Shown here piece by piece: positions 3,147-31,224 of a DNA stretch of 32,000 bases (position 1 is the first letter of the stretch; each line of letters begins with the position of its first letter). This DNA is from an archaeon (GTDB taxonomy: Archaea; Iainarchaeota; Iainarchaeia; Iainarchaeales; CSSED10-239): assembly GCA_041657425.1 (NCBI GenBank), contig JBBABY010000010.1:12582-44581 (forward strand), given 5' to 3'. The notes under the pieces were generated by a model. That model saw only the letters and a list, made by a program, of their open reading frames with translations, searched no databases and was not told the DNA's origin. The translations under genes and the position numbers were made by a program.

Positions 3147-3344
3147 TTTATTTTCCCCCTTTTATATTTAGTATTTTTTATTTTTCTATTAGAAAAAAAC
3201 GAAAAATCCTTATTTAAGGTATTTAAATATTTATAGCAAAAACAGTATTTAAATGTTTCTTTTGGACGGTAATATAAAGGTTTTCATACATAATATATAT
3301 AATAAATAACGGGAATTAGTTACTATTGACTACAGGTGATATTT

Positions 3345-5639
3345 ATGAAGAAATTAAAAAAATCAGCAGTAAGTTTTAATAAAAAAGAAATAATGGATAA
3401 ATTAAATAAACAGCTCAATTTTCCAACTACTTTTGTTATTAGTCCAATTGATATATTCTTATTAAAAAAGAAAAAAATTGATATTAAAAATTATGCAAGA
3501 GACTTAAAGAAAGTAAATGCAAATCACACAATTTATCTTGGTATGAAATATAATATTACGGACTTAATGGACGCCGGATTTACCGATACTGAAATTAAGA
3601 CGTTAGGTTTTACATTAAATGAAAAGAAACCAGTTGTTAAAGTTGCAAAGAAACTAGTTGTTATAAAGAAAAAACCAGTTGTAATTAAGAAAAAACCAAT
3701 CCTAAAAAAGGCAACTGCAAGTTTAAGCAAAAAAGAAATTGTTGATAAATTAAGTAAACAGCTTAATTCTCCAACCACTTTCTTAATCAGTCCAATAGAT
3801 ATCTCACTATTAAAGAAAAAGAAAATAAGCATTACAAGATATGCAAAAGACTTAAAAAAAGTAAAAGCAAATCACACAATTTATCTTGGAATGAAATATA
3901 CAATTAAAGATTTAAAGAATGCAGGATTTACAAATTTCGAAATTACAGAACTTGGGTTTAAAGCAGAAGAAAAGAAATCAGTTGTTAAAAAGAAAAAAGA
4001 AATTAAGAAAAAGCAATTACCATTAATAGAACTTCTAAGAAAGAAAACTCCTGCAAGAAAATTACTTTCATTAGGTTATAACTATATAAAACTAAAACAA
4101 AGAAAATATACAGCAACTAAATTAAAAAAAATGAAATTCAGTTCTAAATATCTTTTTACGATTGGTTTTTCAGCAGCAGATTTACATAATGCAAAATATG
4201 CATTAGTGGAATTAAAGAAAGCAGGTTATTCTGCAAAGGAATTAAAAGCAATTGGCTATTTAGCTAAAGATTTATTAAAAGTAAAATATAGTGAAGATGT
4301 TGTCGCTTATGCACAGTATCCCGCAAAGGAATTATATAAATTAGATTTCCCAGTTAAGAAATTAAAGATTGCAGGATATAAAGCAACTGAATTAATTGAA
4401 GCAGGATATACTTTAGAAGATTTAAAGAAGGCATACACAATTAGAGAACTATTAGTTGCAGGATATACTCTTTTAGATTTAGTGGATAAAGAAAAAATAA
4501 ATATACAGCAATTACTTGATGAAGGCATAACTATTGCTGATCTTTTAAAAGAAGGATTTAGAATTAAAGAATTAACTCCAGTTGGCGTTACTGCTAAACA
4601 ATTTAGAGAAGCAGGTGTAAGTTCAAGAGACATGTATAAAGTAGGATATTCTATAAGAGAACTAAAAGACGCAGGATATAAGTTAAAAGACTTATTTGAT
4701 TTAAGAGATCTTTTAACATTAAAAGAAAAGAAAGAAGAATTTAATTTAGAAGATTTAAGATATTTAAATTATTCTGCAAAAGAGTTACTTGGATTTGGGT
4801 ATGCTCCTGCTGAGCTTTATTTCTCTGGATATACCACTAAAGAATTATCAGATGCAGGACTTTCTTGTGTTCAGTTAATGGATGCTGGTTGTTCATTAAA
4901 TGATATAAGATTAATCGGTTGTGGTTTAGCAGAATTTATTTCTAAAGGATATTTCGCAAAAGACTTAAAAAGAGCAGGATTTTCTGCAGTTGAGATTCAT
5001 TTAGCAGGATATAGTTTATATGATTTAAGAGATGCAGAATTTAATGCAAAAGAATTACTTGGTATTGGATATTCAGCAAAACAATTTCATAATCTAGGAT
5101 TTACTGCTAGAGAATTATATTTTGCAGGATTTGGTTTACAAATAATAAAAGATGCAGGATATGGTGCTAAAGAACTTGCAGATTTAGATATTGATATAAT
5201 TGAATTTGCAAATGCGGGATATTCAGCAAAAGAAATGAGGGCTGCAAGTTACAGTGCTTATGATTTAAAGAAAGCATATCCAGCAAGAGAACTTAGACTT
5301 GCAGGTTTTGATGCTGCTTCTTTAAGGGATGCAGGGTACTCAGCAAAAGAATTACATGATGTTGGGTTCTTTCCAAGAGAATTATATTATGCAGGATATT
5401 CTGCAAAAGATGTTAATGGACTAGGATATGGGCCAAGACAATTAAGAGTAATAAGATATACAGCAAAAGAATTAAAGCCAATAGGGTTTACTGCAAGAGA
5501 ATTATATTCTGCAGGATATAGTGCTGATCAATTAATCAAAGCAGGATATAGTTATAAGGACTTATCAGATCTTGGAGTAAGTCAAAGAAGACTACATAGA
5601 CATCTTAGAATACACTCTAAAGGATATAATTTCTTTTAG
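3345..5639 (+). CDS. large decapeptide-repeat protein, about 50 x [YF]-[ST]-A-K-E-L-x-x-A-G, with a duplicated Lys-rich N-terminal module
   Basis: The ATG at 3345 lies 5 nt after AGGTGA (the track starts at a GTG at 3336). The 10-residue periodicity is visible from about residue 225 to the C-terminus (AGYSAKELKA IGYLAKDLLK ...). The stop is TAG. Confidence 0.85.
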   Translation: MKKLKKSAVSFNKKEIMDKLNKQLNFPTTFVISPIDIFLLKKKKIDIKNYARDLKKVNANHTIYLGMKYNITDLMDAGFTDTEIKTLGFTLNEKKPVVKVAKKLVVIKKKPVVIKKKPILKKATASLSKKEIVDKLSKQLNSPTTFLISPIDISLLKKKKISITRYAKDLKKVKANHTIYLGMKYTIKDLKNAGFTNFEITELGFKAEEKKSVVKKKKEIKKKQLPLIELLRKKTPARKLLSLGYNYIKLKQRKYTATKLKKMKFSSKYLFTIGFSAADLHNAKYALVELKKAGYSAKELKAIGYLAKDLLKVKYSEDVVAYAQYPAKELYKLDFPVKKLKIAGYKATELIEAGYTLEDLKKAYTIRELLVAGYTLLDLVDKEKINIQQLLDEGITIADLLKEGFRIKELTPVGVTAKQFREAGVSSRDMYKVGYSIRELKDAGYKLKDLFDLRDLLTLKEKKEEFNLEDLRYLNYSAKELLGFGYAPAELYFSGYTTKELSDAGLSCVQLMDAGCSLNDIRLIGCGLAEFISKGYFAKDLKRAGFSAVEIHLAGYSLYDLRDAEFNAKELLGIGYSAKQFHNLGFTARELYFAGFGLQIIKDAGYGAKELADLDIDIIEFANAGYSAKEMRAASYSAYDLKKAYPARELRLAGFDAASLRDAGYSAKELHDVGFFPRELYYAGYSAKDVNGLGYGPRQLRVIRYTAKELKPIGFTARELYSAGYSADQLIKAGYSYKDLSDLGVSQRRLHRHLRIHSKGYNFF

Positions 5640-6090: not shown

Positions 6091-6792
6091 TTATTTTTTT
6101 TTAATTTTTTTAACTTCTTTTTTCTGTTTTGTTACAACTAGTTTTCCAGTTGCTAAGAATTCTTTCATACTAATAAGCCCGTATTTTGTGATTATCCAAG
6201 AACCAGTAAATATTGCTCCTGCCATTAATGGATTTAATCTTAAGAGTAATGAAGCTACGCCACCAGCAGTAGCTACTTGAATGTCTGGTCTTGAAAATAA
6301 TTCCCCAATTTTTTCAAAGAATTCTTTTGTTTTACCAGTTTTAGGATTTATTTCTGCAGCTAGTTCTCCGTTTGTAAAAATTCTAACTCTTCCATCTTCT
6401 TCTGAAGAGATGATTGCTAGAACGTTTTTAGTTTCTGAAATTCCTCTTGCTGCAGAATGTCTTGTTCCATGTCCTTTAAGGATTGTAGTTTTCTTAACTT
6501 TTGCACCATAATCAACAATGTACCCATCATTATCAACAACTATTGCTCCATCAAGTTCAAGTAAAGCGATTAAGAGGGTTTGTGTTTCTTTGTTGAAGAT
6601 GCTTATTTTCTTACCAGAAAATAAATCAGGATATAGGCATTCGTATTTATCAGAGATATCCTTTTTAGTAATTATAAAAAAAGAACCTTTCTTTTTATTT
6701 GCCATGTCGTTAACCATTTGAACAACTACGGCTATTACTTTTTTATTTAAATTTGAATTGTGGTTTTTATTCATATTAATATATATATCCAT
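6091..6792 (-). CDS. diadenylate cyclase (DAC/DisA_N domain) with a C-terminal hydrophobic segment
   Basis: DAC hallmarks are present: LELDGAIVV (DGA motif) and GHGTRHSAARGISETKNVLAIISSEEDGRVRIF (RHR-type motif plus SEE(T/D)G). The C-terminal VATAGGVASLLLRLNPLMAGAIFTGSWIITKYGLI looks membrane-associated. The true start may be an internal Met. Confidence 0.85.
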   Translation of the reverse strand: MDIYINMNKNHNSNLNKKVIAVVVQMVNDMANKKKGSFFIITKKDISDKYECLYPDLFSGKKISIFNKETQTLLIALLELDGAIVVDNDGYIVDYGAKVKKTTILKGHGTRHSAARGISETKNVLAIISSEEDGRVRIFTNGELAAEINPKTGKTKEFFEKIGELFSRPDIQVATAGGVASLLLRLNPLMAGAIFTGSWIITKYGLISMKEFLATGKLVVTKQKKEVKKIKKK

Positions 6793-6880
6793 TTAGTTTA
6801 TATAAAGTATATTATTTATTTTTCAGTTATGTTTATAAAATAATTTGATTACTTATATTTATCAATTAAACGGAGAAACC

Positions 6881-8146
6881 ATGAATAGTCCACTTTTATT
6901 TTTAGTGTTTATCGCAGGAATATTTTTATTAGGATTTTTAGGGAATGTATTTTTTAGAAAAACAAAGATTTCAGATGTTTTTATATTAATTTTTATTGGT
7001 TTATTTTTAGGGCCTATATTTCAAGTAGTCCCTCAAGCAACAATATTACAACTAAGGGAATATTCACCTATTTTTGCAGCAATTGCCTTAATTGTTTTAA
7101 TTTTTGATGGAGGACTATATCTTAATTTTTATAGAGTTATTACTGAAATAAAAAATGCATTTTTATTTACAATGCTAGTTTTTGTATTAACTTCTGTACT
7201 TTCTGGAGTGCTGTTACATTTTGTTTTTGGATTTGAATGGATTTATGGTCTTTTATTAGGAGTAATTATTGGAGGAACGAGTTCAGAAATAATAATTCCG
7301 TTAGTTACAAAATCAAGTGCAACAGACCAAACAAAAACAATAATGACTTTAGAATCAGCAATAACTGATGTTTTATGTGTTGTTGCAACAGTTACTATTG
7401 TTGGAATAATTATTACTCAAGTTGCAAATACAAAATTAATTATTCAAGGGGTATTTTCTGCTTTTGCAATCGCCGCAGTTGTTGGCCTTATTGGAGGGAT
7501 AATTTGGTCTAAAATTTTAAGAGACTCTGAAGATGTAAAAGGATTTAGTTACTTTCTTACGCTTTCGTTTTTATTTTTATTATATGCAGCAACTGAATTT
7601 TTAAGTGGTAATGGCGCATTTTGTGTTTTAGTGTTTGGATTAGTGTTAGGCAATGCTTCGGACATATTTAAAACATTTAAGATGAAAGATTTCACTTTAG
7701 AAAAAAACATACACCATTTCCAAACGGAAATCTCACTAGTGATTAAAACTTTCTTTTTTATATATTTAGGAGTAATTATTGAATTTAAATATATAACTTT
7801 TGAAGTAATCTTAATAACTTTAGCATTAGTTGCTTTAATTATTATTTTAAGAATATTAATTACAAAACTATTATTTTTTAAAAATTTTGAAAAGAAAGAC
7901 AAAGCTCTTATCGTTTCATTACACACAAGAGGGTTAGCTGCTGCAGTACTTGCAACTTATCCGATAAGTATGGGAATTAACAATGCCTTTACTCAAAAAA
8001 TAGTAGGTGTTTCATTATTAGTAATACTTATGACAAATGTAACAACTACAATATACTATTTTATAATAGAACACAAAAGTGATAGTGAAACAATAAATAA
8101 AAATTATTTATTAAAAAAAGACAAAAATAAAATGAGTAATAAATGA
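6881..8146 (+). CDS. cation:proton antiporter (Na+/H+ exchanger, CPA1-like)
   Basis: About 420 aa and polytopic (10 or more TM helices), with a typical Na_H_exchanger layout. The ATG at 6881 is preceded by GGAG; the track TTG at 6845 is less likely. Confidence 0.8.
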   Translation: MNSPLLFLVFIAGIFLLGFLGNVFFRKTKISDVFILIFIGLFLGPIFQVVPQATILQLREYSPIFAAIALIVLIFDGGLYLNFYRVITEIKNAFLFTMLVFVLTSVLSGVLLHFVFGFEWIYGLLLGVIIGGTSSEIIIPLVTKSSATDQTKTIMTLESAITDVLCVVATVTIVGIIITQVANTKLIIQGVFSAFAIAAVVGLIGGIIWSKILRDSEDVKGFSYFLTLSFLFLLYAATEFLSGNGAFCVLVFGLVLGNASDIFKTFKMKDFTLEKNIHHFQTEISLVIKTFFFIYLGVIIEFKYITFEVILITLALVALIIILRILITKLLFFKNFEKKDKALIVSLHTRGLAAAVLATYPISMGINNAFTQKIVGVSLLVILMTNVTTTIYYFIIEHKSDSETINKNYLLKKDKNKMSNK

Positions 8147-9162
8147 TTTCTAAAAAAGGGGTTTCTGAAATAATAGTTGTAACAATGGTTATTGTAGTTT
8201 CTATAATTATTGCAGGAATATTTTTTGTTTGGATTAATGAATATTTATCTAAGGATAAGTTAGATCAAACAGGTGGGGTACTATTACAAGCAAGCGATTT
8301 ATCTTGTATGAATGTAAAGATTAAAGTTGATTCTTGTACAATAAACAATGCAAATAAAGTTACTCAAATTTTAGTTACAAATAGTTCTGATTTAACTCTA
8401 TTTAATTTTGTGCTTACAATTGAAGGAAAGAATGTAAGTGGAACAGATATGACACTTATTGGAACATTTGATGAATCGGTTTCTGGAGGTCAAATAGTAA
8501 ATCTATCGACAGATACTAATTTTAATTATACAAGAGAAGACTTTGATTATTTTACTTTGGATACAAGTGAAATAACAAGCATGGTATTAACTAATGGGAC
8601 TTGTCCTAAGAAATCAGAAATTTTAGAATGCGAGATTATCGCAGGTCCATTAACCACACGCATTATTTCTCCAGAAGATGAAAAATATTATTTTTATGAA
8701 GACTCAATAGATTTCAATGCATACACAAGTGGAGGAAGTGAAGATTATAATTGTTCTTGGTCTTCAGATGTTGATGGCGAATTAGACACCGGTTGTAATC
8801 TTGCAATAGATACTTTAAAAAATTTAGGAGCACACACAATTACTTTAACAGTAACAGATGGAGAAAGTACAGAGATAGCAACCACAGGCATTACAATTAA
8901 AGACCACTTAGTACCAATCATTTCATCTCCAGCAGACGAATCCATAGTTGCATTAGGAGCAATTGAGTTCTCTGGTTCAGTAAGTAACGCACAAGGAGAA
9001 TACACTTGTTCTTGGACATCAGATGTAGATGGTGCAATTGGATCAAGATGTGATTTTAATAAAAGTAATTTAACTCTTGGCGTGCACACCATTACTTTGA
9101 CGGTAGCAGATGAATTAGAAACAAGAAGCACAACTGCAGATATTAATGTTTTAGCAGAATAG
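8143..9162 (+). CDS. archaeal type IV pilin-like protein (class III signal peptide) with two PKD-like domains
   Basis: The N-terminus KKG|VSEIIVVTMVIVVSIIIAGIFFVWI is a prepilin-peptidase-type signal. It carries the shared ~165-aa module ending LTNGTCPKK. Two repeats follow: Y(N/T)CSW(S/T)SDVDG...HTITLTV(T/A)D. The ATGA overlaps the antiporter stop. The gene ends at a TAG that is in frame with the next ORF. Confidence 0.8.
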   Translation: MISKKGVSEIIVVTMVIVVSIIIAGIFFVWINEYLSKDKLDQTGGVLLQASDLSCMNVKIKVDSCTINNANKVTQILVTNSSDLTLFNFVLTIEGKNVSGTDMTLIGTFDESVSGGQIVNLSTDTNFNYTREDFDYFTLDTSEITSMVLTNGTCPKKSEILECEIIAGPLTTRIISPEDEKYYFYEDSIDFNAYTSGGSEDYNCSWSSDVDGELDTGCNLAIDTLKNLGAHTITLTVTDGESTEIATTGITIKDHLVPIISSPADESIVALGAIEFSGSVSNAQGEYTCSWTSDVDGAIGSRCDFNKSNLTLGVHTITLTVADELETRSTTADINVLAE

Positions 9163-9225
9163 CCATGTATCACGGAAGGAGATGGCTCAGAAGAAAATCC
9201 ATTTATTATTTGTACAATAGAAGAC

Positions 9226-10161
9226 TTGAATAATGTAAGAAACGATTTAGAGGGTTATTATTTACTTGGTGCGGATATAGATATGAATGTTTCGCCATAC
9301 AATGAAGGAGAAGGCTGGGAACCAATTGGAGATGCTTCTGCAGGATTTTTGGGAAATTTTGACGGCAATAATCACACAATAAATAATTTATACATTAATA
9401 GACCAGAAACAGATAATGTAGGATTATTTGGTTATATTATTAGTAATGTAATAAATAATGTAAAATTAGAAGATGTTAATGTTATAGGTCAAAATTATGT
9501 GGGGGGATTAGTTGGAATGAATAATCAGGGAACAATTTTCTCGAGTAATTCCATAGGAAATATTTATGGAATTGGGGGAGTTATTGGTGGTTTAGTTGGG
9601 TATATAGAACTGGGAGAGATAACTAATTGTTTTTCAAATTCTGTAGTCACTGGAAGAAATAGTGTTGGTACATTAATTGGATCTGGTTTTCAAAGTATCG
9701 TCGTAGAAAGTTATTCAACAGGGTCTGCAATAGGAGAAGAAAGTGTAGGAGGAATGATTGGACTCGACGAAAGTGGAACATTTGAAAATTGTTATTCATT
9801 AAGTAATATAACACGTATATCTGATTCTAGTGAAACATCTTTTGGTGGGTTTATAGGATATACAGAAGGCTGGACAGATATTAACAATAGTTATTCAATA
9901 GGAAGAGTAATTTATGAAGATACATCAAATCCAACAAATAAAGGATTTTCTGGAGATGCAATCAATGGTTACAATAATTTTTGGGATATGAATACATCAT
10001 TGCAAACAACAAGTGATGATGGAGCAATTGGTTTAACAACAGAACAAATGAAAGATCCAAATAATTTTACTGATTGGGATTTCGACACCATCTGGGATAT
10101 TAATGAAGGAACAACTTATCCTTATTTAAGAAATAATATTCCAAGTTCTTTGCCTCAGTAA
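9226..10161 (+). CDS. GLUG-motif repeat protein with no credible own start; likely a continuation of 8143..9162
   Basis: Repeated GG(L/M/F)(V/I)G motifs are present (VGGLVGMN, IGGLVGY, VGGMIGL, FGGFIGY). The frame is open back to the TAG at 9160-9162, and the conserved module opening GDGSEENPFIICTIEDLNNVRNDL lies upstream of the TTG used by the track. Confidence 0.6.
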   Translation: MNNVRNDLEGYYLLGADIDMNVSPYNEGEGWEPIGDASAGFLGNFDGNNHTINNLYINRPETDNVGLFGYIISNVINNVKLEDVNVIGQNYVGGLVGMNNQGTIFSSNSIGNIYGIGGVIGGLVGYIELGEITNCFSNSVVTGRNSVGTLIGSGFQSIVVESYSTGSAIGEESVGGMIGLDESGTFENCYSLSNITRISDSSETSFGGFIGYTEGWTDINNSYSIGRVIYEDTSNPTNKGFSGDAINGYNNFWDMNTSLQTTSDDGAIGLTTEQMKDPNNFTDWDFDTIWDINEGTTYPYLRNNIPSSLPQ

Positions 10162-10223
10162 CTAAAAGCTTTTTTAAAAGTTATATTTATAAAATAATTC
10201 TCCTTCTATATTAATGATAGAAT

Positions 10224-11573
10224 ATGATTAAAACAAATAAAGGCGCATCAGAGGTTATTGTTGTAACTTTAATTATTGTGGTTACAGTAATCCTTGCAGG
10301 TATTTTCTTTGCTTGGCTTAAGGAATCTTCAAATACACAATTAGATCAAACATCAATGCAATTAAAAGAAGCAAGTGATTTGTCTTGCAGCAATGCTACA
10401 TTTAAGATTGAATCTTTTGATTTAGACGAAGTAAATAGAAAGATTAGTTTTGTTTTATCAAACAACTCTGATTTAAAAATTTTTAATTTGATTTTGTCAG
10501 TTCAAGGGAAAGATGCAGAAGGTGTTGATTTAAAAATTAGTGGAAGATTTGATACAATTGTTGAATCTGGACAAATGGTTTCACTTTCAACAGATTCCAA
10601 TTTCACTTATATTTCTGGAGATATATCAGCTTTAGGAACATTAGATTTTGGGAATTTAACAAATATCACTTTAACAAACGGAACATGTCCTAAAAAGATT
10701 TTATTAATTGATAGTTATGATTTAACTTTAATTCAAAGTGATTTAGTTGCAGACCCAAATGCAGATACGTTTTTTGAATCTCAAAACATAACTTTATCGT
10801 CAGAAGAAGGAGCAACAATATATTACACAACAGATGGGAGCGATCCAACAATCGAAAGCGAAGTTTATGTTTCTCCAATTAATATTCCTTTAGATACTGT
10901 TATAACAATAAACGCAATTTCGGTTAAGCCAAATTATGAGACTAAAGATTTTACAGGAAAATACACAGTAACCCATATTCTTGCAACGCCGACTGCTGAC
11001 CCCGAACCTTATGAATTTACAAGGCCAATAGAAGTTAGATTATTTGCAGAAGACGGTGCAACTATTTACTATACTCTTGATTCAAGTATACCTGGCGGAA
11101 AATCTATGCTATATGAATCTCCTATACTAATTAATTCCACAACAGTAATAAATGCAATAGCTGTGAGGGATGGATATGGGGATAGTGATCTGTTTACTGG
11201 CACATATACTTCTTTAGAAAGTTATACTTTAGAATATAACACTTCATCTGGGGTTTTAACATTAGAATTAATTCCAGATTTATCTATTCCGCTTAGTAAT
11301 AATATAGCATTTAGATATTTTGGTGCTTTTAAGGATCCTATAAGTACTTCTGCTTCAGCTGCTACTACTTCAGGTTTTCTAGAGGCTAATCCTAGTCCAT
11401 ACGAATTTAAAGACTGTAGGCTAATTAGATTTGATTGTGAGCAGTTGGCTTTAGATATAGGTATGAACGACGTAGATAGATTTGAGATAATTGAAATACC
11501 AGATAAAGGGAGCATTAATGTTTTGATTACAATTTTACCCGATGATATTACAATAGTTTCTGATAAGAAGTGA
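10224..11573 (+). CDS. archaeal type IV pilin-like protein with two chitobiase/hexosaminidase-C-like (Fn3-associated) domains
   Basis: The N-terminus is NKG|ASEVIVVTLIIVVTVILAGIFFAWL, followed by the shared module ...LTNGTCPKK. Two copies of the (E)GATIYYT(T/L)D(G/S)S.P....S..Y.SPI pattern follow. Confidence 0.8.
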   Translation: MIKTNKGASEVIVVTLIIVVTVILAGIFFAWLKESSNTQLDQTSMQLKEASDLSCSNATFKIESFDLDEVNRKISFVLSNNSDLKIFNLILSVQGKDAEGVDLKISGRFDTIVESGQMVSLSTDSNFTYISGDISALGTLDFGNLTNITLTNGTCPKKILLIDSYDLTLIQSDLVADPNADTFFESQNITLSSEEGATIYYTTDGSDPTIESEVYVSPINIPLDTVITINAISVKPNYETKDFTGKYTVTHILATPTADPEPYEFTRPIEVRLFAEDGATIYYTLDSSIPGGKSMLYESPILINSTTVINAIAVRDGYGDSDLFTGTYTSLESYTLEYNTSSGVLTLELIPDLSIPLSNNIAFRYFGAFKDPISTSASAATTSGFLEANPSPYEFKDCRLIRFDCEQLALDIGMNDVDRFEIIEIPDKGSINVLITILPDDITIVSDKK

Positions 11574-11578
11574 AAAGA

Positions 11579-12082
11579 ATGTTTAAACTAAATAATAAAG
11601 GTGCTTCAGAAGTAATAGTAGTGACTTTAATAATTGTTATTTCTGTAATCTTAGCTGGGCTTTTCTTTTCTTGGCTTAAAGAGTCTTCTAAACAGAATAT
11701 GGATGATGCAAGTAGTGCACTTGTTAATTCAAGTGATGTTTCTTGTATAGATGCTAAGTTTTTAGTTGATTCTTGTGATATTAATAGTACAAGTAGAGTA
11801 ACTAAATTAATGTTTACTAATAATTCTGATTTAAAAATATTTAATATAGTGCTTACTATTGAAGGGAAGAATGTAAGTGGAACAGATATGACACTTATTG
11901 GTAGATTTGAAGATGTTGTTAGTGGTGGAGAAGTAATTGAATTATCCACAGATACTAACTTTACTTACACTAGACAAGATTCTGATTATAATACTTTAGA
12001 CACTAGTGAGATAAGTAATATGGTTCTAACTAATGGAACTTGCCCAAAGAAGGCAGTTGTACTTAATTGTATTGTTAACTAG
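11579..12082 (+). CDS. archaeal type IV pilin-like protein (module only, candidate major subunit)
   Basis: The N-terminus is NNKG|ASEVIVVTLIIVISVILAGLFFSWL and the shared module ends NGTCPKKAVVLNCIVN. A 35-nt run (11867-11901) is identical to 8428-8462. The start could also be the GTG at 11570, which overlaps the previous stop. Confidence 0.8.
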   Translation: MFKLNNKGASEVIVVTLIIVISVILAGLFFSWLKESSKQNMDDASSALVNSSDVSCIDAKFLVDSCDINSTSRVTKLMFTNNSDLKIFNIVLTIEGKNVSGTDMTLIGRFEDVVSGGEVIELSTDTNFTYTRQDSDYNTLDTSEISNMVLTNGTCPKKAVVLNCIVN

Positions 12083-25202: not shown

Positions 25203-25922
25203 ATGCAAAAAAAATCACCAATTAAACCCGTTTTTGAAACTATTAAGAAAAAAGTTGATGCTTATAAGAATAGAAATACTACTGTAAGGCCTGCAGTTGT
25301 TGAAAAATTAAATTCTTTATCAAAAAGATTTATTTCTCCTAAGGCATATTTTACAAGTAATATCCAAAGAATGGCTTCAGAATTCTATGATTTTAATAAC
25401 GCTTTAGTTAGTAAAGAATTACCATTAAATCCAAAAGATATAAAGCTAGATTCTAAAGATCCATTATATAAAGAAAAAAGTAGGTTTGCTGCAATTCAAA
25501 CTGCAAATAGATTGACGAGCAGAATTACACCAAGGAAAGTAGGAAATATTTTTGAAATAAAATTAACTTTAATTTTAAGAAATAAGAAGTTGTCTTCTGC
25601 AGAAAAGCAACAACAACTTAATAATTTAATCAAAGAAATAGATTCTTTCCAAAAGATATCTCAAGTTGATAAAAGAATTAAGAGTTTAGAGTCTGAAATT
25701 AGCAAAAATGTAGACACAGTTACAAATATTCTTAAAGATATCAATTCTTTCTTAGAAAGTAATTCCGTTAATCCAGTAGAAAAAAAAGAATTATTAAATT
25801 TTTTAGAACTATGGAAAAGAAATCTTAGAAATTCAGATGCAATTTTAAGAGAATATAAAGTAAAACGTGAAAATTTAAGAGCATTGAGAGCAAAAATTAA
25901 TGATTCAATTACTAAGTTATAA
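25203..25922 (+). CDS. hypothetical protein (helical or coiled-coil, basic)
   Basis: A long ORF with a GAGGGA-like RBS upstream and no recognised motif. Confidence 0.55.
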   Translation: MQKKSPIKPVFETIKKKVDAYKNRNTTVRPAVVEKLNSLSKRFISPKAYFTSNIQRMASEFYDFNNALVSKELPLNPKDIKLDSKDPLYKEKSRFAAIQTANRLTSRITPRKVGNIFEIKLTLILRNKKLSSAEKQQQLNNLIKEIDSFQKISQVDKRIKSLESEISKNVDTVTNILKDINSFLESNSVNPVEKKELLNFLELWKRNLRNSDAILREYKVKRENLRALRAKINDSITKL

Positions 25923-25944
25923 AAGGATAAATACGAATATACTA

Positions 25945-26898
25945 ATGAAAACTATAATATTCCATCATGATGATATAGATGGACTAATTTCGGCTTTAGG
26001 TTTTGCATATAATGACTACACCACCAAAAATCCTGGAGAAATTCCAGATTATAAAGAACTACGAAAAAACTATTTCTTTTTTGAAGTACATTACGGTATG
26101 TCTGATATCTTTAGTTATTGTAGAAAGAATCATTTTAATTTAAATGGATTTGAAAGAGTGATTGTTGTAGACTTTTGTTTTAAAAAAGAAGTTATGCAAG
26201 AGTTTTCAGATACTTATAAAAATAATTTTATATGGATTGATCATCACAAGAACGTAATTGATGAATTTTCTGATTTAGAAATAAAGGGATTACGAAATCA
26301 TAATTTTGCAGCAAGTGTTCTTGTTTGGAAGTATTTTAATAAAGAGCCATGTTTATTTGCTCAATATATTGAAGACATGGATATCTGGAAATGGCAATTG
26401 CCTAATTCCAGAGAAATATTGCAATATTTAGATTATTTATATATGCAAATTTTTGATAAAGATCATCCAGAGAACGAAAATAAAATAATTAATGATTTTT
26501 TAGATTTTTTTGATGATAATAAATTTAAGAATCAACTTCCTGAATTTATAAATTTAGGAAAGATGATGGAATTATATATTAAAATTAGAGTTAAAGATGA
26601 TGTAATTACAGGAAAAACTTTCGATTTTGAAGGAGTAAAAACATTTGTAGTCAATTCTCAATTTAAAGCAGGATTATTTTCTGATTATATATTTAATAAT
26701 TCAAATTATAATGATGTAGAATTGGTGATTGTTTGGTATAAGTCTTATGCTAAGTATGGAGAAGGAAATAACTTTGATAAAGTGAGTCTTAGATCAAGAA
26801 ATATAGATTGTTCTCCAATTGCTCAGAAATTCGGTGGAAATGGTCACCCTAAAGCAAGTGGTTTTATAATTTCAGATATTGATGATATTATTCAATAA
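25945..26898 (+). CDS. stand-alone DHH/DHHA1 phosphoesterase (NrnA/Pde2-like)
   Basis: IIFHHDDIDGLIS (DHH motifs I and II), WIDHHKN (the DHH motif) and GGNGHPKASGF (the DHHA1 GGGH motif) are present. The ATG at 25945 (MKTIIF) is preferred over the track start at 25900, which overlaps the previous gene. Confidence 0.8.
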   Translation: MKTIIFHHDDIDGLISALGFAYNDYTTKNPGEIPDYKELRKNYFFFEVHYGMSDIFSYCRKNHFNLNGFERVIVVDFCFKKEVMQEFSDTYKNNFIWIDHHKNVIDEFSDLEIKGLRNHNFAASVLVWKYFNKEPCLFAQYIEDMDIWKWQLPNSREILQYLDYLYMQIFDKDHPENENKIINDFLDFFDDNKFKNQLPEFINLGKMMELYIKIRVKDDVITGKTFDFEGVKTFVVNSQFKAGLFSDYIFNNSNYNDVELVIVWYKSYAKYGEGNNFDKVSLRSRNIDCSPIAQKFGGNGHPKASGFIISDIDDIIQ

Positions 26899-28334: not shown

Positions 28335-28994
28335 TTAGAGTTGTAATTTTTTACTTAATTTCTTTTGATATTCATAGCAATTAGTTAAGTATCTTTTTGT
28401 AATTGGTAACAATTGGTCTTTCGGACAATTTAGATCAATAATGAATTCATCTCCTGTAGCATCATTTTTTCTAGTGTTTAATAAATCTTTAATCTTAAGT
28501 ATGTCTTTGTCTTTTCTATCTTTAGAGTTTCTTATACTTTTAAGTAGTGCTTTTCCAATAGTTTCTAGATATTTATCTACAATAGAATAACTATATATTT
28601 TATTTAAATTATGCATAGAGTCTCCATCAAAAAGAATAATAAATCTATCTTTTGGACTATATTTATGATTATCAATTAGTTTCTTTTTCTCAATATAGTA
28701 TCCAAATCTATTAAGTAATCCGGTTTTAGGATCTTTTTTTAATATCTCTAAATCAAGAACAGCATTTGAAAAATTAGATAACGTTTTTTCTATTCTGAGA
28801 TATGCATCTTCCCATTTTTTAGAAAGATAATTTTTATATTTTAAACTAGGACCAGAATAGATTTCAATATTGTATTCTTTTCCTTGATGCTTCTTTGATT
28901 TTGCAATCTTTAATGCTTGCTCTGCTTCAAGGATATTTTTTCCAATTCCTACACTAAGTTTAATTAGAACGCCTTTTAAATTAGCTTTTGTCAT
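28335..28994 (-). CDS. GGDEF-like nucleotidyl cyclase domain protein with permuted motif order, paralog 1
   Basis: The motif order is IKLSVGIGKNILEAEQALKIAKSKK, then a helical linker, then DPKTGLLNR, then FIILFDGDSMHNLN, then TGDEFIIDL. All are GGDEF-domain hallmarks, but the normally C-terminal block comes first. Confidence 0.6.
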   Translation of the reverse strand: MTKANLKGVLIKLSVGIGKNILEAEQALKIAKSKKHQGKEYNIEIYSGPSLKYKNYLSKKWEDAYLRIEKTLSNFSNAVLDLEILKKDPKTGLLNRFGYYIEKKKLIDNHKYSPKDRFIILFDGDSMHNLNKIYSYSIVDKYLETIGKALLKSIRNSKDRKDKDILKIKDLLNTRKNDATGDEFIIDLNCPKDQLLPITKRYLTNCYEYQKKLSKKLQL

Positions 28995-29133
28995 TTATTC
29001 CCTTTTTGTATTTATATTAATTATCTTATACATCAAGCCCTATTTAAAATGCGTATATAATATTTTTTGTAATTTTGAAAAAATTATATGTGGATTTATT
29101 GATTTATTAAAAAATATTTTAATAAAGAATAAA

Positions 29134-29784
29134 TTAGCTTTTCTTTTTTAAAGCTAATTTCTTTTGTGCATTATAGATTTCGGCAAGGTATCTTTTGGCT
29201 ACATTCTTAATATCCTTTTCTTTACAAGAAATATCTATTATAAATTCATCTCCAGCACTATCGTTCTTTCTGTGCATTAATGGATCTTGAGTAATGATAA
29301 TGTCTTTTTCTTTTCGATGATTATCTTTTCTAGTACAATTATTTAAGGTATTTCCAATTAATGTAAGATATTTATCTACAAAACAATATCCATATCTTTG
29401 ATTTAATCTATGCATAGAATCGCAATCAAATAAAATAACAAATCTACTATTATATTTATTATGAGATTTTAATTTTTCTTTTTCAATTAAGTATCCCGTT
29501 TTATTTAACAATCCTGTTTTTGGATCACGTTTAAGTACTTCTAAATCAGATATTGCACTTTTTGATTTAGATAATTCTATTTCTAATCTTTTATATGAAT
29601 TAATAACTTCTTTTGGTAGGTTTTTTACTGTAGATTTAAGACGAGGCCCAGAGTAAAGTTCTATATTATAGGTTTTACGATATTTTTTTGTTTTAGCAAT
29701 TTTAAGTGTTTCTTCTGCCTCTCTTAGGTTTCTGCCAATACCAGCACTTAATTTGATAATTATAGCTGAATCTTCAATTTTCAT
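29134..29784 (-). CDS. GGDEF-like nucleotidyl cyclase domain protein with permuted motif order, paralog 2
   Basis: The ATG at 29784 lies 8 nt after GGAGG (the track start at 29862 adds an unlikely 26-aa extension). The motif order is IKLSAGIGRNLREAEETLKIAKTKK, then DPKTGLLNK, then FVILFDCDSMHRLN, then AGDEFIIDI. It is about 50% identical to paralog 1 by eye. Confidence 0.6.
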   Translation of the reverse strand: MKIEDSAIIIKLSAGIGRNLREAEETLKIAKTKKYRKTYNIELYSGPRLKSTVKNLPKEVINSYKRLEIELSKSKSAISDLEVLKRDPKTGLLNKTGYLIEKEKLKSHNKYNSRFVILFDCDSMHRLNQRYGYCFVDKYLTLIGNTLNNCTRKDNHRKEKDIIITQDPLMHRKNDSAGDEFIIDISCKEKDIKNVAKRYLAEIYNAQKKLALKKKS

Positions 29785-30036: not shown

Positions 30037-31224
30037 TTAAATAAATCCTTTAACAATAACTACAGGGGTGTTGGCATCAGCGCTTCCAGAAACAAGATCT
30101 GCAAGACTTGCTACAAGGTTTCTTACTTTTCTTGGAGTTGTTCCTTCACAAGCAATTTCTCCCTTGTCTGTTCCACACATTATTCTTTTCTTTTCTTTTT
30201 CTATTTCTTTAAGGATTTGGTCTTTGTTTTTTCCTTCGTTTAAAAGTTTTTGCATTAAGTATTTTGTTTTAACTCCAACTCTTCTAATCTTTTCAATACC
30301 CGGAGTGACTCCAAATGCACAAACTGGATCTGCAAGTTCATAGATCCCACTTTCTGGATCTTTATATGCTCCATCTCCATATACCATAACTTCAACTTCT
30401 TTCTTAAATTCTTTTTTTATCATCTTTTGAATCTCAAGACAAACTTTATCTGCATCTCTTGGTGGGAGTTTAAGTAGCCCTTTTTCAGGATCTAAAATGT
30501 TTGAACCAAGTAATCCATATTCAGAATATACTTTTTGGTTCTTGTCTGAACAGATATTTTGAAGAGTTATAACATTTTTAAATTTAGGTTTGATTTCTTC
30601 AAATATTTTTTTTCTCGCGTGAACATTAGAAACAATTATTGCATCTGGTTTACATTTGATTATATCTTCAGAATTATTGGATAAGTAAATTTCTGCTTTT
30701 GCTCCTTCTTTAGTAATTAATTCTTTATAAAACTTAATATAGTCTATTCCTGTTTCTGGATGTATGAATCTATTTTTTCCAATTTTTCCTAAAGTAATTT
30801 TATCTTCTAGTTTTAGTTTATTTTTTTTAAGAAATTCTTCAGAAATGATTTGATTTCCTTGTTCATCAGCAGGGAAAGATAACTGGATAATTACTTTTCC
30901 TTTTGGTACGGAACTTGCAATTGATCTTAAAATTAAAGAAAATCTATTTCTAGAGGTTATAGGATATATAAGTCCAATTGTGGATGTTGGTTTTAGTTTT
31001 AGTTTAGTAGTTATGTCTTTTTTAATATCAGAAAGATTAACAAAGTTCTGTTGAGTAATAGCAGTAACTGCTTCTTTAACACAAATAATGTCTCCATTAT
31101 CAATAGCGGTTGGATTTTTTTTTATTGTTGCTTTAATAACATTTACTAGATTATCATTAGGAGTAATAATACCGGTTTTGATTCCATAAGCAATAACTCC
31201 AAAATAATTTTTATCATAATTCAT
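30037..31224 (-). CDS. CofE-like (F420-0:gamma-glutamyl ligase family) protein with a large internal insertion
   Basis: GIKTGIITPNDNLVNVI...DNGDIICVKEAVTAITQQN, LLKLPPRDADKVCLEIQKMI...EVEVMVYGDG and ADLVSGSADANTPVVIVKGF parallel the conserved blocks of CofE (about 250 aa). This protein is 395 aa. Confidence 0.55.
   Translation of the reverse strand: MNYDKNYFGVIAYGIKTGIITPNDNLVNVIKATIKKNPTAIDNGDIICVKEAVTAITQQNFVNLSDIKKDITTKLKLKPTSTIGLIYPITSRNRFSLILRSIASSVPKGKVIIQLSFPADEQGNQIISEEFLKKNKLKLEDKITLGKIGKNRFIHPETGIDYIKFYKELITKEGAKAEIYLSNNSEDIIKCKPDAIIVSNVHARKKIFEEIKPKFKNVITLQNICSDKNQKVYSEYGLLGSNILDPEKGLLKLPPRDADKVCLEIQKMIKKEFKKEVEVMVYGDGAYKDPESGIYELADPVCAFGVTPGIEKIRRVGVKTKYLMQKLLNEGKNKDQILKEIEKEKKRIMCGTDKGEIACEGTTPRKVRNLVASLADLVSGSADANTPVVIVKGFI

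What the first reader, a model, noticed from the sequence alone, without database searches (positions are those of the whole stretch)
28335..29784. Tandem paralogs carry all GGDEF-domain motifs in circularly permuted order, in a likely archaeal genome
In canonical GGDEF domains (PleD, WspR) the order is DxLTGLxNR, then the LxDxDxFKxIN strand, then the GG(D/E)EF hairpin, then helix alpha3. The final block is (V/L)T(I/V)SxG(V/I)A...AD.ALY.AK..GRN and a last strand. Both proteins here begin with that final block (IKLSVGIGKNILEAEQALKIAKSKK..YNIEIY and IKLSAGIGRNLREAEETLKIAKTKK..YNIELY). A ~40-aa helical linker follows, then DPKTGLLN(R/K), F(I/V)ILFD(G/C)DSMH.LN and (T/A)GDEFIID. Each protein stops one helix later, so every secondary-structure element of the palm fold is present once but rotated. 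Read across the gene boundary, the C-terminal two-thirds of the upstream gene plus the N-terminal ~45 aa of the downstream gene would form one conventional domain. The pair could therefore derive from a tandem GGDEF array with shifted boundaries, or could complement each other in trans. The signature is (A/T)GDEF rather than GGDEF. As far as I recall, some non-canonical first-position variants remain active in bacteria. GGDEF signalling is regarded as essentially bacterial. I know of no described permuted form, so this may be a new nucleotide-cyclase architecture, and its product cannot be inferred.
Basis: partly seen in the sequence, partly recalled or inferred. Interest (0 to 1): 0.8.

Follow-up and report, generated by a model that had tools for sequence, protein, structure and literature searches.

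The report
Circularly permuted GGDEF cyclase pair, DPANN archaeon
Two neighbouring genes of a tiny-celled (DPANN) archaeon each encode a complete diguanylate-cyclase-type (GGDEF) enzyme domain whose last third has moved to the front of the protein. I found no description of this rearrangement, which defines a small family seen so far only in archaea that were thought to largely lack this signalling enzyme.

Summary
Two intact minus-strand genes, geneA (29134..29784, 216 aa) and geneB (28335..28994, 219 aa), are about 52% identical. Each starts with the strand-helix-strand block that ends a canonical GGDEF domain. A helical hairpin follows, then the DxLTGLLN, DxDxx(H/K)xxN and (A/T)GDEF core, and the protein ends after helix alpha3.

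The permutation is well supported:
- Pfam GGDEF matches only profile positions 3-73 in each single protein, but 3-156 across an A+B concatenate.
- A 68-sequence profile of the N-terminal block alone aligns to the C-terminal block of a canonical GGDEF profile (hhalign score 31.3, against a maximum of 13.7 in 100 column shuffles).
- The artificially un-permuted family profile aligns to canonical GGDEF end to end.
- The AlphaFold model (pLDDT 85, pTM 0.83) retrieves only diguanylate cyclases as its top 15 PDB matches.

About 70 clusters at 50% identity share this order. Every named genome hit is a DPANN archaeon. All other loci examined carry a single copy, so the tandem pair is a later duplication, not a split enzyme.

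The metal-, guanine- and phosphate-binding residues are conserved. The most likely function is a sensor-less dimeric diguanylate cyclase, but this is untested. Databases already call these proteins "diguanylate cyclase". The permutation itself was not found in the literature searched.

The parts
29134..29784 (-). geneA: permuted GGDEF protein, 216 aa plus stop. Start is the ATG at 29784, preceded by GGAGG.
   Evidence: The exact sequence is NCBI MFA5746238.1 / MFA7708521.1, named 'MAG: diguanylate cyclase [archaeon]'.
29653..29760 (-). geneA N-terminal block (residues 9-44): strand IKLSAGIG, helix AEETLKIAKTKK, strand YNIELY. Equivalent to canonical GGDEF beta4-alpha4-beta5. Carries K31 and K34, which align to the phosphate-binding K442/R446 region of PleD.
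   Evidence: AlphaFold elements E12-17, H20-32, E39-43 with pLDDT 77-94. hhalign of this block to canonical profile columns 124-171 of 198. Weak mCpol match at profile positions 83-109 of 114.
29530..29631 (-). geneA helical hairpin (residues 52-85). It joins the ancestral C-terminus to the ancestral N-terminus. The second helix corresponds to the stalk helix that precedes canonical GGDEF domains and is a putative dimerisation element.
   Evidence: AlphaFold helices H58-71 and H75-84. Many canonical GGDEF proteins match the family profile from HMM position ~59-63 onward. The dimerisation role is inference.
29137..29529 (-). geneA GGDEF core (residues 86-216). Contains DPKTGLLN, the beta1 motif FVILFDCDSMHRLN (D120, D122, H125, N128), VDKYL (D137), R152, R172, the AGDEF hairpin and a long alpha3.
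   Evidence: PF00990 scores 30.2 bits against a cutoff of 23.8, covering profile 3-73. hhalign of the native family profile to canonical scores 138.5.
29242..29256 (-). geneA signature AGDEF (residues 177-181). It is preceded by a family-specific 4-residue insertion (R172-KNDS-AGDEF, against canonical RxGGDEF).
28995..29133 (.). 139-bp AT-rich intergenic spacer with stops in all frames, oligo-T runs and a TTTAAATA TATA-like element about 40 nt upstream of the geneB ATG.
   Evidence: sequence reading; promoter and terminator roles are inferred.
28335..28994 (-). geneB: permuted GGDEF paralog, 219 aa plus stop.
   Evidence: The exact sequence is NCBI MFA5746237.1 / MFA7708522.1.
28857..28967 (-). 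geneB N-terminal block (residues 10-46): LIKLSVGIG, AEQALKIAKSKK, YNIEIY. Equivalent to beta4-alpha4-beta5.
28338..28736 (-). geneB GGDEF core (residues 87-219), including DPKTGLLN, ILFDGDSMHNLN, VDKYL, TGDEF (28443..28457) and the terminal helix.
   Evidence: PF00990 scores 27.2 bits against a cutoff of 23.8, covering profile 3-73. Coordinates.

Best explanation
Architecture. Each of the two genes encodes a self-contained, circularly permuted GGDEF-type nucleotide cyclase. Relative to PleD or WspR, the chain starts just before strand beta4. It runs beta4-alpha4-beta5 and then crosses a ~35-residue helical hairpin that bridges the old C- and N-termini. The second helix of that hairpin corresponds to the stalk helix of ordinary diguanylate cyclases. 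The chain then continues through the DxLTGLLN turn, beta1 (DxDxxHxxN), alpha2, the (A/T)GDEF hairpin and alpha3, where it stops.

Active-site residues, by alignment to PleD (numbering recalled from memory):
- metal-binding Asp: D120
- guanine-binding Asn and Asp: N128, D137
- hairpin acids: D179, E180
- phosphate-binding Lys: K31, now at the N-terminus
These are conserved in both paralogs and across about 70 sequence clusters.

Proposed function (inferred, not shown). The protein is a small, sensor-less enzyme that dimerises through the hairpin or stalk and condenses two GTP into c-di-GMP. Dimers may be homodimers, or A/B heterodimers in this genome.

Origin of the pair. The tandem pair is a lineage-specific duplication of an already permuted gene. 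The family is known so far only from DPANN archaea.

What is shown and what is inferred. Shown: gene structure, permutation, family, taxonomy and residue conservation. Inferred: intramolecular packing of the N-terminal block (AlphaFold only), dimerisation, GTP as substrate and c-di-GMP as product. My confidence is about 0.9 for the permutation and about 0.5 for diguanylate cyclase activity; the single figure given (0.6) is for the statement as a whole.
For: Permutation, sequence evidence:
- Single proteins match PF00990 above the gathering score, but only on profile 3-73. An A+B concatenate gives one stretch covering 86-249 of the protein and 3-156 of 161 in the profile, E 3.8e-14.
- The un-permuted family profile aligns to the DosC GGDEF domain, profile 37-201 to chain 2-151. 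GDEF lies on GGDEF and AE.AL..AK on AD.AL..AK. The native profile covers only 90-156.
- hhalign against a 54-sequence canonical GGDEF profile scores 31.3 for the N-terminal block alone (P 8.5e-6, canonical columns 124-171; shuffle maximum 13.7). The native family scores 138.5 over 112 columns. The un-permuted family scores 165.8 over 155 columns, end to end.
- In canonical-order proteins, the family's N-terminal block matches downstream of the core in every clear case: P0061 17.1 bits, P0157 12.6, P0097 10.8, P0082 7.9.
- P0061 is a canonical-order protein that shares the family-specific hairpin insertion and the LHxxN motif.

Permutation, structural evidence:
- AlphaFold gives pLDDT 84.9 and pTM 0.83, with the element order E-H-E | H-H | H-E-H-H-E-E-H.
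- The Foldseek PDB top 15 are all diguanylate cyclases, for example DgcB 6tts with rmsd 2.8 A over 120 columns.

Family and conservation:
- About 70 clusters at 50% identity have full-length matches.
- Invariant or near-invariant positions are G15, G17, A23, A26, A30, K31, K34, D87, T90, G97, D120, N128, V136, G144, R152, D167, R172, G178, D179, E180, F181 and R198.
- Position 125 is H in 49 and K in 19 sequences (canonical is K). Position 177 is A in 43, G in 10 and T in 6.
- An AGDEF enzyme is an active diguanylate cyclase (PMC3974145).

Copy number and host:
- Orthologs are single-copy in L001-L011.
- Genome hits are all DPANN.
Against: - No enzyme assay exists.
- Un-permuting single sequences raises the Pfam score by only 3-5 bits, so the single-sequence signal for the N-terminal block is weak. 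The case rests on profiles and on the model.
- I could not inspect model coordinates. Packing of the N-terminal block beside beta1 is inferred from pLDDT and pTM only.
- AlphaFold on an un-permuted construct failed (pLDDT 46.5 with 2 sequences).
- The GGDEF hairpin carries a 4-residue insertion, and the first Gly is Ala or Thr. The canonical Lys of DxFK is His in both genes. The Arg of AK..GRN is replaced by Lys at a different spacing. Any of these could change or abolish the chemistry.
- No EAL, HD-GYP or PilZ gene and no conserved partner was seen in the flanks.
- NCBIfam TIGR00254 scores fall below its cutoff (19.4 and 18.6 against 37.4).
Confidence: 0.6

Rival explanations
1. The permuted palm is catalytically active but makes something other than c-di-GMP. 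Candidates are c-di-AMP, cGAMP (as in Hypr GGDEFs), a linear pppNpN, or a cyclic oligonucleotide in the manner of Cas10 or mCpol.
For: - The hairpin insertion, the (A/T)GDEF signature and the His for Lys at position 125 alter the active-site surroundings.
- Across the family, the guanine-specifying position 137 is D in 42, T in 16 and S in 6 sequences. From my own knowledge of Hypr GGDEF enzymes, Ser at this position shifts specificity toward ATP.
- The N-terminal block gives weak mCpol matches (E 0.009-0.02 in single proteins; 28.2 bits in the A+B concatenate).
Against: - Both window genes keep Asn128 and Asp137, the guanine-binding pair.
- GGDEF scores far exceed mCpol scores (53 against 28 bits).
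- The Foldseek top hits are diguanylate cyclases, not Cas10 or adenylyl cyclases.
- There is no defence-system context (PADLOC found nothing).
- The window already encodes a DAC-domain c-di-AMP synthase.
Confidence: 0.2
2. The proteins are non-catalytic, degenerate GGDEF domains. They would act as nucleotide-binding regulators or receptors, or as NTPases, like the GdpP GGDEF domain.
For: - Non-canonical signature and a lengthened hairpin.
- No recognisable sensor domain.
- No turnover or receptor genes nearby.
- A weak GGDEF_GdpP match for the N-terminal block of geneB (E 0.28).
- Archaea are generally held to lack c-di-GMP signalling (PMC5847659).
Against: - Degenerate GGDEF domains usually lose the metal-binding and hairpin acids. 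Here D120, D179, E180, N128 and K31 are invariant or nearly so over about 68 diverse sequences, which is the pattern of an enzyme under selection.
- The canonical RxxD inhibitory or receptor site is not retained in its canonical spacing.
Confidence: 0.15
3. The N-terminal block only resembles the GGDEF C-terminal block by chance. On this reading the proteins are C-terminally truncated GGDEF domains fused to an unrelated small N-terminal domain.
For: Un-permuting single sequences adds only 3-5 bits to the Pfam score. A control with the N-terminal block reversed scored 32.7 bits, against 34.6 for the true un-permuted form and 31.9 for the core alone.
Against: - Profile-level score of 31.3 against a shuffle maximum of 13.7, aligned to exactly the missing segment, with the SxGxG and A..AL..AK motifs in register.
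- The block is found downstream of the core in canonical-order proteins.
- The predicted secondary structure is strand-helix-strand, as required, within a compact model of pTM 0.83.
- A truncated palm lacking beta4 would leave the sheet incomplete.
Confidence: 0.05
4. The pair is a split or trans-complementing enzyme, or an assembly or frameshift artefact of one conventional multi-GGDEF gene.
For: The C-terminal two-thirds of geneA plus the N-terminus of geneB give a canonical-order Pfam match.
Against: - All 11 other loci have one permuted gene only.
- The spacer has stops in every frame, and geneB has its own ribosome-binding and TATA-like signals.
- The same two proteins are adjacent in two deposited MAG records.
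- The N-terminal block is conserved at the N-terminus in about 70 clusters.
Confidence: 0.03

Closest known systems
Canonical GGDEF diguanylate cyclases (Pfam PF00990; PleD, WspR, DgcZ, DosC, SiaD, DgcB)
   Same: - Same palm fold. The Foldseek top 15 are all diguanylate cyclases.
- Same motifs: DxLTGLxNR-like turn, DxDxx(K/H)xxN, GD-like VD, xGDEF hairpin, SxGxG strand and A(D/E).AL..AK helix.
- The same residues align to the metal-, guanine- and phosphate-binding positions.
- A stalk-like helix precedes the core.
   Different: - Circularly permuted: beta4-alpha4-beta5 lies at the N-terminus and the chain ends after alpha3.
- A helical hairpin bridges the old termini.
- A 4-residue insertion sits before the signature, and the first Gly is mostly Ala (43 of 68).
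- His usually replaces the FK lysine.
- The RxxD I-site is split by a variable loop: R152 and D167 are conserved but lie 14 or more residues apart.
- There is no sensor or receiver domain.
- The hosts are DPANN archaea, not bacteria.
AGDEF/SGDEF-type active diguanylate cyclases (e.g. V. cholerae VCA0965, PMC3974145)
   Same: A non-canonical first position of the signature, compatible with c-di-GMP synthesis.
   Different: Those enzymes have the normal order of elements and are bacterial multi-domain proteins.
mCpol (PF18182) and Cas10 palm domains
   Same: Related minimal palm domains, which I recall being placed in the same Pfam clan as GGDEF. The N-terminal block gives weak matches to the last third of the mCpol profile.
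   Different: - Scores are below the gathering cutoff for single proteins.
- There is no CRISPR or defence context.
- GGDEF scores and fold matches are much stronger.
P0061 (JGI metagenome, 258 aa, 'hypothetical protein')
   Same: Shares family-specific traits: the R-x-NGS-x-GDE(Y/F) lengthened hairpin, LHxxN in place of FKxxN, and SVGVGYT..A.EAL.KAK.
   Different: - Canonical order, with the block at the C-terminus (residues 212-236).
- A singleton in the database.
- It lies directly downstream of a RelA_SpoT-domain gene.
- It is a candidate un-permuted sister of the family.

Membership tests
GGDEF domain (PF00990) / diguanylate cyclase | Significant match to the family profile above the curated cutoff | tested here: met
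   geneA scores 30.2 bits and geneB 27.2 bits, against a cutoff of 23.8, but only profile positions 3-73 are covered. NCBIfam TIGR00254 scores 19.4 and 18.6, below its cutoff of 37.4.
GGDEF domain (PF00990) / diguanylate cyclase | Canonical linear order alpha0-beta1-alpha1-alpha2-beta2-beta3-alpha3-beta4-alpha4-beta5 | tested here: not met
   The order is beta4-alpha4-beta5-(hairpin)-alpha0...alpha3. All elements are present once, but rotated.
GGDEF domain (PF00990) / diguanylate cyclase | Palm fold shared with solved diguanylate cyclases | tested here: met
   The Foldseek PDB top 15 are all GGDEF proteins at probability 0.96-1.00, with rmsd 2.8-3.0 A over 120 columns to 6tts, 3mtk and 3tvk. 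The sequential alignment cannot cover the permuted block.
GGDEF domain (PF00990) / diguanylate cyclase | GG(D/E)EF signature at the beta2-beta3 hairpin | tested here: inconclusive
   geneA has AGDEF and geneB has TGDEF. G178, D179, E180 and F181 are conserved at 63-68 of 68 across the family. The first position is A in 43, G in 10 and T in 6. A 4-residue insertion precedes the signature. AGDEF can be active (PMC3974145).
GGDEF domain (PF00990) / diguanylate cyclase | Metal-binding Asp in beta1 and guanine-binding Asn/Asp (PleD D327, N335, D344; numbering from my own knowledge) | tested here: met
   D120 and N128 are invariant (68 of 68). D137 is present in both window genes (family: D 42, T 16, S 6).
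GGDEF domain (PF00990) / diguanylate cyclase | Phosphate-binding Lys/Arg in the AD.ALY.AK..GRN helix (PleD K442, R446) | tested here: inconclusive
   K31 aligns with the AK lysine (60 of 68). The Arg is replaced by K34 (55 of 68) at a different spacing.
GGDEF domain (PF00990) / diguanylate cyclase | RxxD allosteric I-site five residues upstream of the signature (optional in the family) | tested here: not met
   R152 and D167 are each conserved (63 of 68), but a variable loop of 14 or more residues with low pLDDT separates them.
GGDEF domain (PF00990) / diguanylate cyclase | Dimer-dependent synthesis of c-di-GMP from 2 GTP | not testable with these tools
   Requires biochemistry.
mCpol (PF18182) | Profile match above the gathering score | tested here: not met
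   15.5-16.8 bits against a cutoff of 26.4 for single proteins, and only the last ~30 profile positions are matched.
Anti-phage defence nucleotide cyclases (CBASS, type III CRISPR and similar) | Match to a defence-system model, or a defence-island context | tested here: not met
   PADLOC gave no relevant hit. The neighbouring genes are housekeeping genes.

The most novel reading that the evidence does not exclude
DPANN archaea carry their own lineage-specific cyclic-(di)nucleotide signalling enzyme. It would be the first natural circular permutant of the GGDEF/nucleotide-cyclase palm. It is active without any sensor domain and is regulated instead by dimerisation of the bridging hairpin, or by homo- versus heterodimer formation between paralogs. 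Family members with Thr or Ser at the guanine-specifying position may make a different dinucleotide. This would establish c-di-GMP-type signalling in archaea.
Probability: 0.3. Interest if true: 0.8.

Novelty: new variant of a known kind. Interest (0 to 1): 0.62.

Why it matters
- GGDEF is one of the largest bacterial signalling domain families, and all described members share one topology. A natural circular permutant that keeps the catalytic residues shows the palm tolerates re-threading at the alpha3/beta4 loop. This is relevant to cyclase engineering and biosensor design.
- It also gives a concrete case for studying how permutations arise. A candidate canonical-order sister, P0061, exists.
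- The family sits in DPANN archaea. These organisms have tiny genomes and symbiotic lifestyles, and c-di-GMP signalling has not been demonstrated in them. Census papers reported GGDEF as almost absent from archaea.
- If the enzymes are active, they make the question 'do archaea use c-di-GMP?' directly testable with two small soluble proteins.
- On the practical side, current annotation ('diguanylate cyclase') hides the rearrangement. Pfam covers only the first ~70 positions of the domain in each protein.

Tried and rejected
1. AlphaFold on an artificially un-permuted construct. The 2-row version ran but gave pLDDT 46.5 and is unusable. I therefore have no full-length Foldseek superposition on a canonical domain.
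2. Un-permuting single sequences for Pfam gave only +3 to +5 bits. A control with the block reversed gave +0.8 bits. This is too weak alone, so I moved to profile-profile tests.
3. I looked for a conserved functional partner.
   - The close subgroup shows F420_ligase-like, permuted GGDEF, FAD oxidoreductase, DHH/DHHA1, ArsR (window, L002, L003, L005).
   - The distant subgroup shows LeuRS | permuted GGDEF | ~128-aa unknown | CDC48 (L001, L006, L008, L009).
   - L011 differs again.
   - Nothing is shared across subgroups, so I draw no operon-based inference.
   - I considered the DHH/DHHA1 neighbour as a pGpG or cyclic-dinucleotide phosphodiesterase. The window also encodes a DAC c-di-AMP synthase, so that neighbour is not specific evidence.
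4. A defence-system reading (mCpol or CBASS-like) was rejected. PADLOC found nothing and the context is housekeeping genes.
5. I searched for relatives of the canonical-order cousin P0061. It is a singleton.
6. Literature searches for a permuted GGDEF found nothing relevant. The library is limited to open-access papers and bioRxiv, so absence is not proof.
7. No tRNA genes were found in the window.
Full report
**What is there.**
  - geneA is 29134..29784 (216 aa from an ATG preceded by GGAGG).
  - geneB is 28335..28994 (219 aa).
- A 139-bp AT-rich spacer (28995..29133) separates them. It has stop codons in all three frames, oligo-T runs and a TATA-like TTTAAATA ahead of geneB.
- The two proteins are about 52% identical.
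- Both exact sequences are deposited as adjacent proteins in two NCBI MAG records, MFA5746237/8 and MFA7708522/1. They are named 'MAG: diguanylate cyclase [archaeon]'. The gene boundaries are therefore reproduced in two deposited records.

**Is it a GGDEF domain in permuted order? Sequence evidence.**
- Each single protein matches Pfam GGDEF above the curated cutoff (30.2 and 27.2 bits against 23.8). Only profile positions 3-73 of 161 are covered.
- Residues ~10-36 weakly match the last third of the related mCpol profile.
- Concatenating geneA and geneB gives a single GGDEF stretch, residues 86-249 onto profile 3-156, E 3.8e-14.
- I cut the 13-sequence family alignment after residue 50 and moved the N-terminal piece to the C-terminus (11 rows, A2). 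The resulting profile aligns to the crystallised DosC GGDEF domain from profile 37 to 201 and chain 2 to 151. GDEF lies on GGDEF and AE.AL..AK on AD.AL..AK. The native profile (A1, 13 rows) covers only 90-156.
- With single sequences the gain from un-permuting is small, 3-5 bits. I therefore ran profile-profile tests:
  - A 68-sequence profile of the N-terminal block alone, compared with a 54-sequence profile of canonical GGDEF domains, gave hhalign score 31.3 and P 8.5e-6. It aligned to canonical columns 124-171 of 198, which is the 'is.SiGia ... AD.ALY.aK..GkN....y' block.
  - One hundred column-shuffled versions scored 9.0 ± 1.6 (maximum 13.7). The reversed block scored 12.6.
  - The native family profile scored 138.5 over 112 columns.
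  - The un-permuted profile scored 165.8 over 155 columns, end to end.
- In canonical-order proteins retrieved by the family profile, the N-terminal block matches downstream of the core in every clear case. Examples are P0061 (17.1 bits), P0157 (12.6), P0097 (10.8) and P0082 (7.9).

**Structural evidence.**
- AlphaFold2 on geneA with the 13-sequence alignment gave mean pLDDT 84.9 and pTM 0.83.
- The elements are E12-17, H20-32, E39-43 | H58-71, H75-84 | H95-107, E114-121, H124-131, H133-150, E166-172, E180-186, H189-215.
- This is the canonical set of GGDEF elements, started at beta4, with one added helical hairpin.
- Foldseek against the PDB returned diguanylate cyclases as the top 15 hits: DgcZ, SiaD, DgcB, DosP, PA0861, DosC, LapD and GcbC. 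Probabilities were 0.96-1.00, with about 120 columns at 2.8-3.0 A for isolated GGDEF domains.
- Unrelated folds appeared only at E > 0.4.
- Limits:
  - Foldseek aligns sequentially, so it cannot show the moved block.
  - I had no access to model coordinates.
  - My attempt to model an un-permuted construct failed for lack of permitted alignment depth.
  - Packing of residues 9-44 beside beta1 is therefore inferred from the high pLDDT (77-94) and the pTM. It was not inspected.

**The family.**
- A word-indexed search found 12 clusters of 186-233 aa, all with the same architecture.
- An exhaustive profile search found about 70 clusters at 50% identity with full-length matches. Most are 196-279 aa, and a few have larger loop insertions (P0069, 388 aa; P0075, 339 aa).
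- Below these, the hits are ordinary multi-domain bacterial-type GGDEF proteins matched on the stalk and core only.
- Over 68 members the following positions are invariant or nearly so:
  - N-terminal block: G15, I16, G17, A23, A26, A30, K31, K34
  - Core: D87, T90, G97, D120, N128, V136, G144, R152, D167, R172, G178, D179, E180, F181, R198, Y204, Q207
- By alignment to DosC and PleD (PleD residue roles are from my own knowledge of the PleD structures):
  - D120 is the beta1 metal ligand.
  - N128 and D137 are the guanine-binding pair.
  - D179 and E180 are the hairpin acids.
  - K31 is the phosphate-binding lysine.
- Family-specific departures:
  - A 4-residue insertion lies before the signature (R-x-N-G/D-S-A-G-D-E-F).
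  - The first signature position is Ala in 43, Gly in 10 and Thr in 6.
  - The FK lysine position is His in 49 and Lys in 19.
  - A variable, low-confidence loop separates R152 from D167, the residues that align with the RxxD inhibitory site.
- Position 137 is Asp in 42, Thr in 16 and Ser in 6 members. Base specificity may therefore differ within the family. Both window genes have Asp.
- An AGDEF enzyme is a proven diguanylate cyclase (PMC3974145).

**Host and context.**
- All eight hits in the species-representative genome collection are DPANN or unclassified archaeal MAGs: Pacearchaeota, Woesearchaeota, Nanoarchaeia and 'archaeon'.
- The window (GC ~28%) encodes an archaeal-type AdoMet synthetase, GlmS, a DAC-domain diadenylate cyclase and other housekeeping genes.
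- Close relatives (L002, L003, L005) show the synteny F420_ligase-like, permuted GGDEF, FAD oxidoreductase, DHH/DHHA1, ArsR. They carry one permuted gene where the window has two.
- More distant members (L001, L006, L008, L009) sit between LeuRS and a small-ORF/CDC48 cluster, again as a single copy. L011 differs again.
- geneB is 63-64% identical to the single-copy orthologs P0003 and P0004, but only 52% identical to geneA.
- The tandem pair is therefore a later duplication of an already permuted, self-sufficient gene. It is not a split enzyme or an array with shifted boundaries.
- No partner gene is conserved across subgroups, no defence-system model matches, and no EAL, HD-GYP or PilZ gene was seen in the flanks.

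**A possible un-permuted sister.**
- P0061 (258 aa, JGI metagenome) has the canonical order of stalk, core and C-terminal block.
- It shares the family's lengthened hairpin (TRVNGSKGDEY), LHEMN in place of FKxxN, and SVGVGYT..A.EAL.KAK.
- It is a singleton in the database.
- It lies 25 nt downstream of a RelA_SpoT-domain gene, so no N-terminal block is hidden upstream.
- It is the kind of relative expected if the permutation arose within this lineage. One sequence is thin evidence.

**How it most likely works.**
- Shown: a complete GGDEF palm re-threaded so that beta4-alpha4-beta5 comes first; conservation of the catalytic residue set; single-gene sufficiency.
- Inferred:
  - The N-terminal block completes the sheet intramolecularly.
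  - The hairpin, whose second helix aligns with the stalk helices of canonical cyclases (many canonical hits start at profile position 59-63), mediates dimerisation.
  - Two GTP-loaded palms then face each other and make c-di-GMP.
  - In this genome, homo- versus heterodimers of geneA and geneB proteins could add a layer of regulation.
- My confidence is about 0.9 for the permutation and about 0.5 for diguanylate cyclase activity.
- The main alternatives are another nucleotide product (0.2) or a non-catalytic nucleotide-binding role (0.15).

**Comparison with what is known, and novelty.**
- The proteins work like GGDEF diguanylate cyclases and are homologous to them. They fail one structural criterion of the family as described, namely the linear order of elements.
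- Their signature, hairpin length and I-site are also non-canonical.
- Public annotation already calls them 'diguanylate cyclase' or 'GGDEF domain-containing protein'. The homology itself is therefore not new.
- Full-text searches combining GGDEF or diguanylate cyclase with circular permutation, permuted and archaea returned nothing on a permuted GGDEF.
- The archaeal two-component census reported only one archaeal GGDEF domain (PMC5847659).
- A later paper merely noted BLAST hits in Asgard and DPANN archaea (PMC8646023).
- I rate this a new variant of a known kind: a DPANN-specific, circularly permuted GGDEF family.
- Interest is moderate to high. It would surprise c-di-GMP and protein-evolution specialists, and it offers a simple experimental entry to archaeal c-di-GMP signalling. 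Function remains untested.

Noticed in passing
window 6091..6792 (-), next to 6845..8146 (+): A DAC-domain protein (diadenylate cyclase, PF02457, 59.8 bits) lies divergent from a Na+/H+ exchanger gene. The same small genome fragment therefore encodes a c-di-AMP synthase as well as the two GGDEF-type proteins.
   Followed up: partly
window 25900..26898 (+): A DHH/DHHA1-like phosphoesterase with an NrnA-like C-terminus. Its scores are just below the Pfam cutoffs. It lies two genes from the GGDEF pair and is syntenic in L002, L003 and L005. It could degrade pApA, pGpG or cyclic dinucleotides, but it is not linked in more distant genomes.
   Followed up: partly
window 30037..31224 (-): A 395-aa F420_ligase (CofE-like) homolog. 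The 218-position Pfam profile is spread over residues 14-393, which implies large insertions. It is conserved immediately upstream of the permuted GGDEF gene in L002 and L005. This is odd for DPANN archaea, which I would not expect to make F420.
   Followed up: no
window 3336..5639 (+): A 767-aa protein with ten 'Decapeptide repeat region' stretches (PF25296, 406 bits). It is probably a repetitive surface protein.
   Followed up: no
L012 836..2578: The canonical-order cousin P0061 (1802..2578) lies 25 nt downstream of a RelA_SpoT-domain gene (836..1777). This looks like a two-gene nucleotide-messenger cassette. P0061 has no other relative in 5.8 billion proteins.
   Followed up: partly
L001 12843..13868 (-): The contig that carries the permuted member P0012 also encodes a conventional GAF-GGDEF protein of 341 aa. 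Canonical and permuted forms therefore coexist in one DPANN-like genome.
   Followed up: no
L001 7749..11299; L006, L008, L009 around 8000..11600: In the distant subgroup the permuted gene is always followed, on the same strand, by one or two small ORFs (54 and ~119-138 aa, no Pfam match) and a CDC48-type AAA ATPase. LeuRS lies upstream on the opposite strand. This may be an operon or merely conserved synteny.
   Followed up: partly
family alignment, geneA position 137: The residue aligning with the guanine-specifying Asp of PleD is Asp in 42, Thr in 16 and Ser in 6 of 68 family members. This hints at subgroups with altered nucleotide specificity.
   Followed up: no
L003 5119..5709: P0004 is called from an internal Met (196 aa) and lacks the first strand of the N-terminal block. 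This is probably a start-codon miscall or a local frameshift in that contig.
   Followed up: no
hits P0071, P0072, P0074 (2,640-3,558 aa): Giant proteins with two or three separate GGDEF-like stretches rank just below the permuted family in the profile search. Their nature and origin are unknown.
   Followed up: no
L002 8810..9327: A small ORF and a ParE-toxin gene are inserted between the permuted GGDEF gene and the DHH gene in one relative.
   Followed up: no
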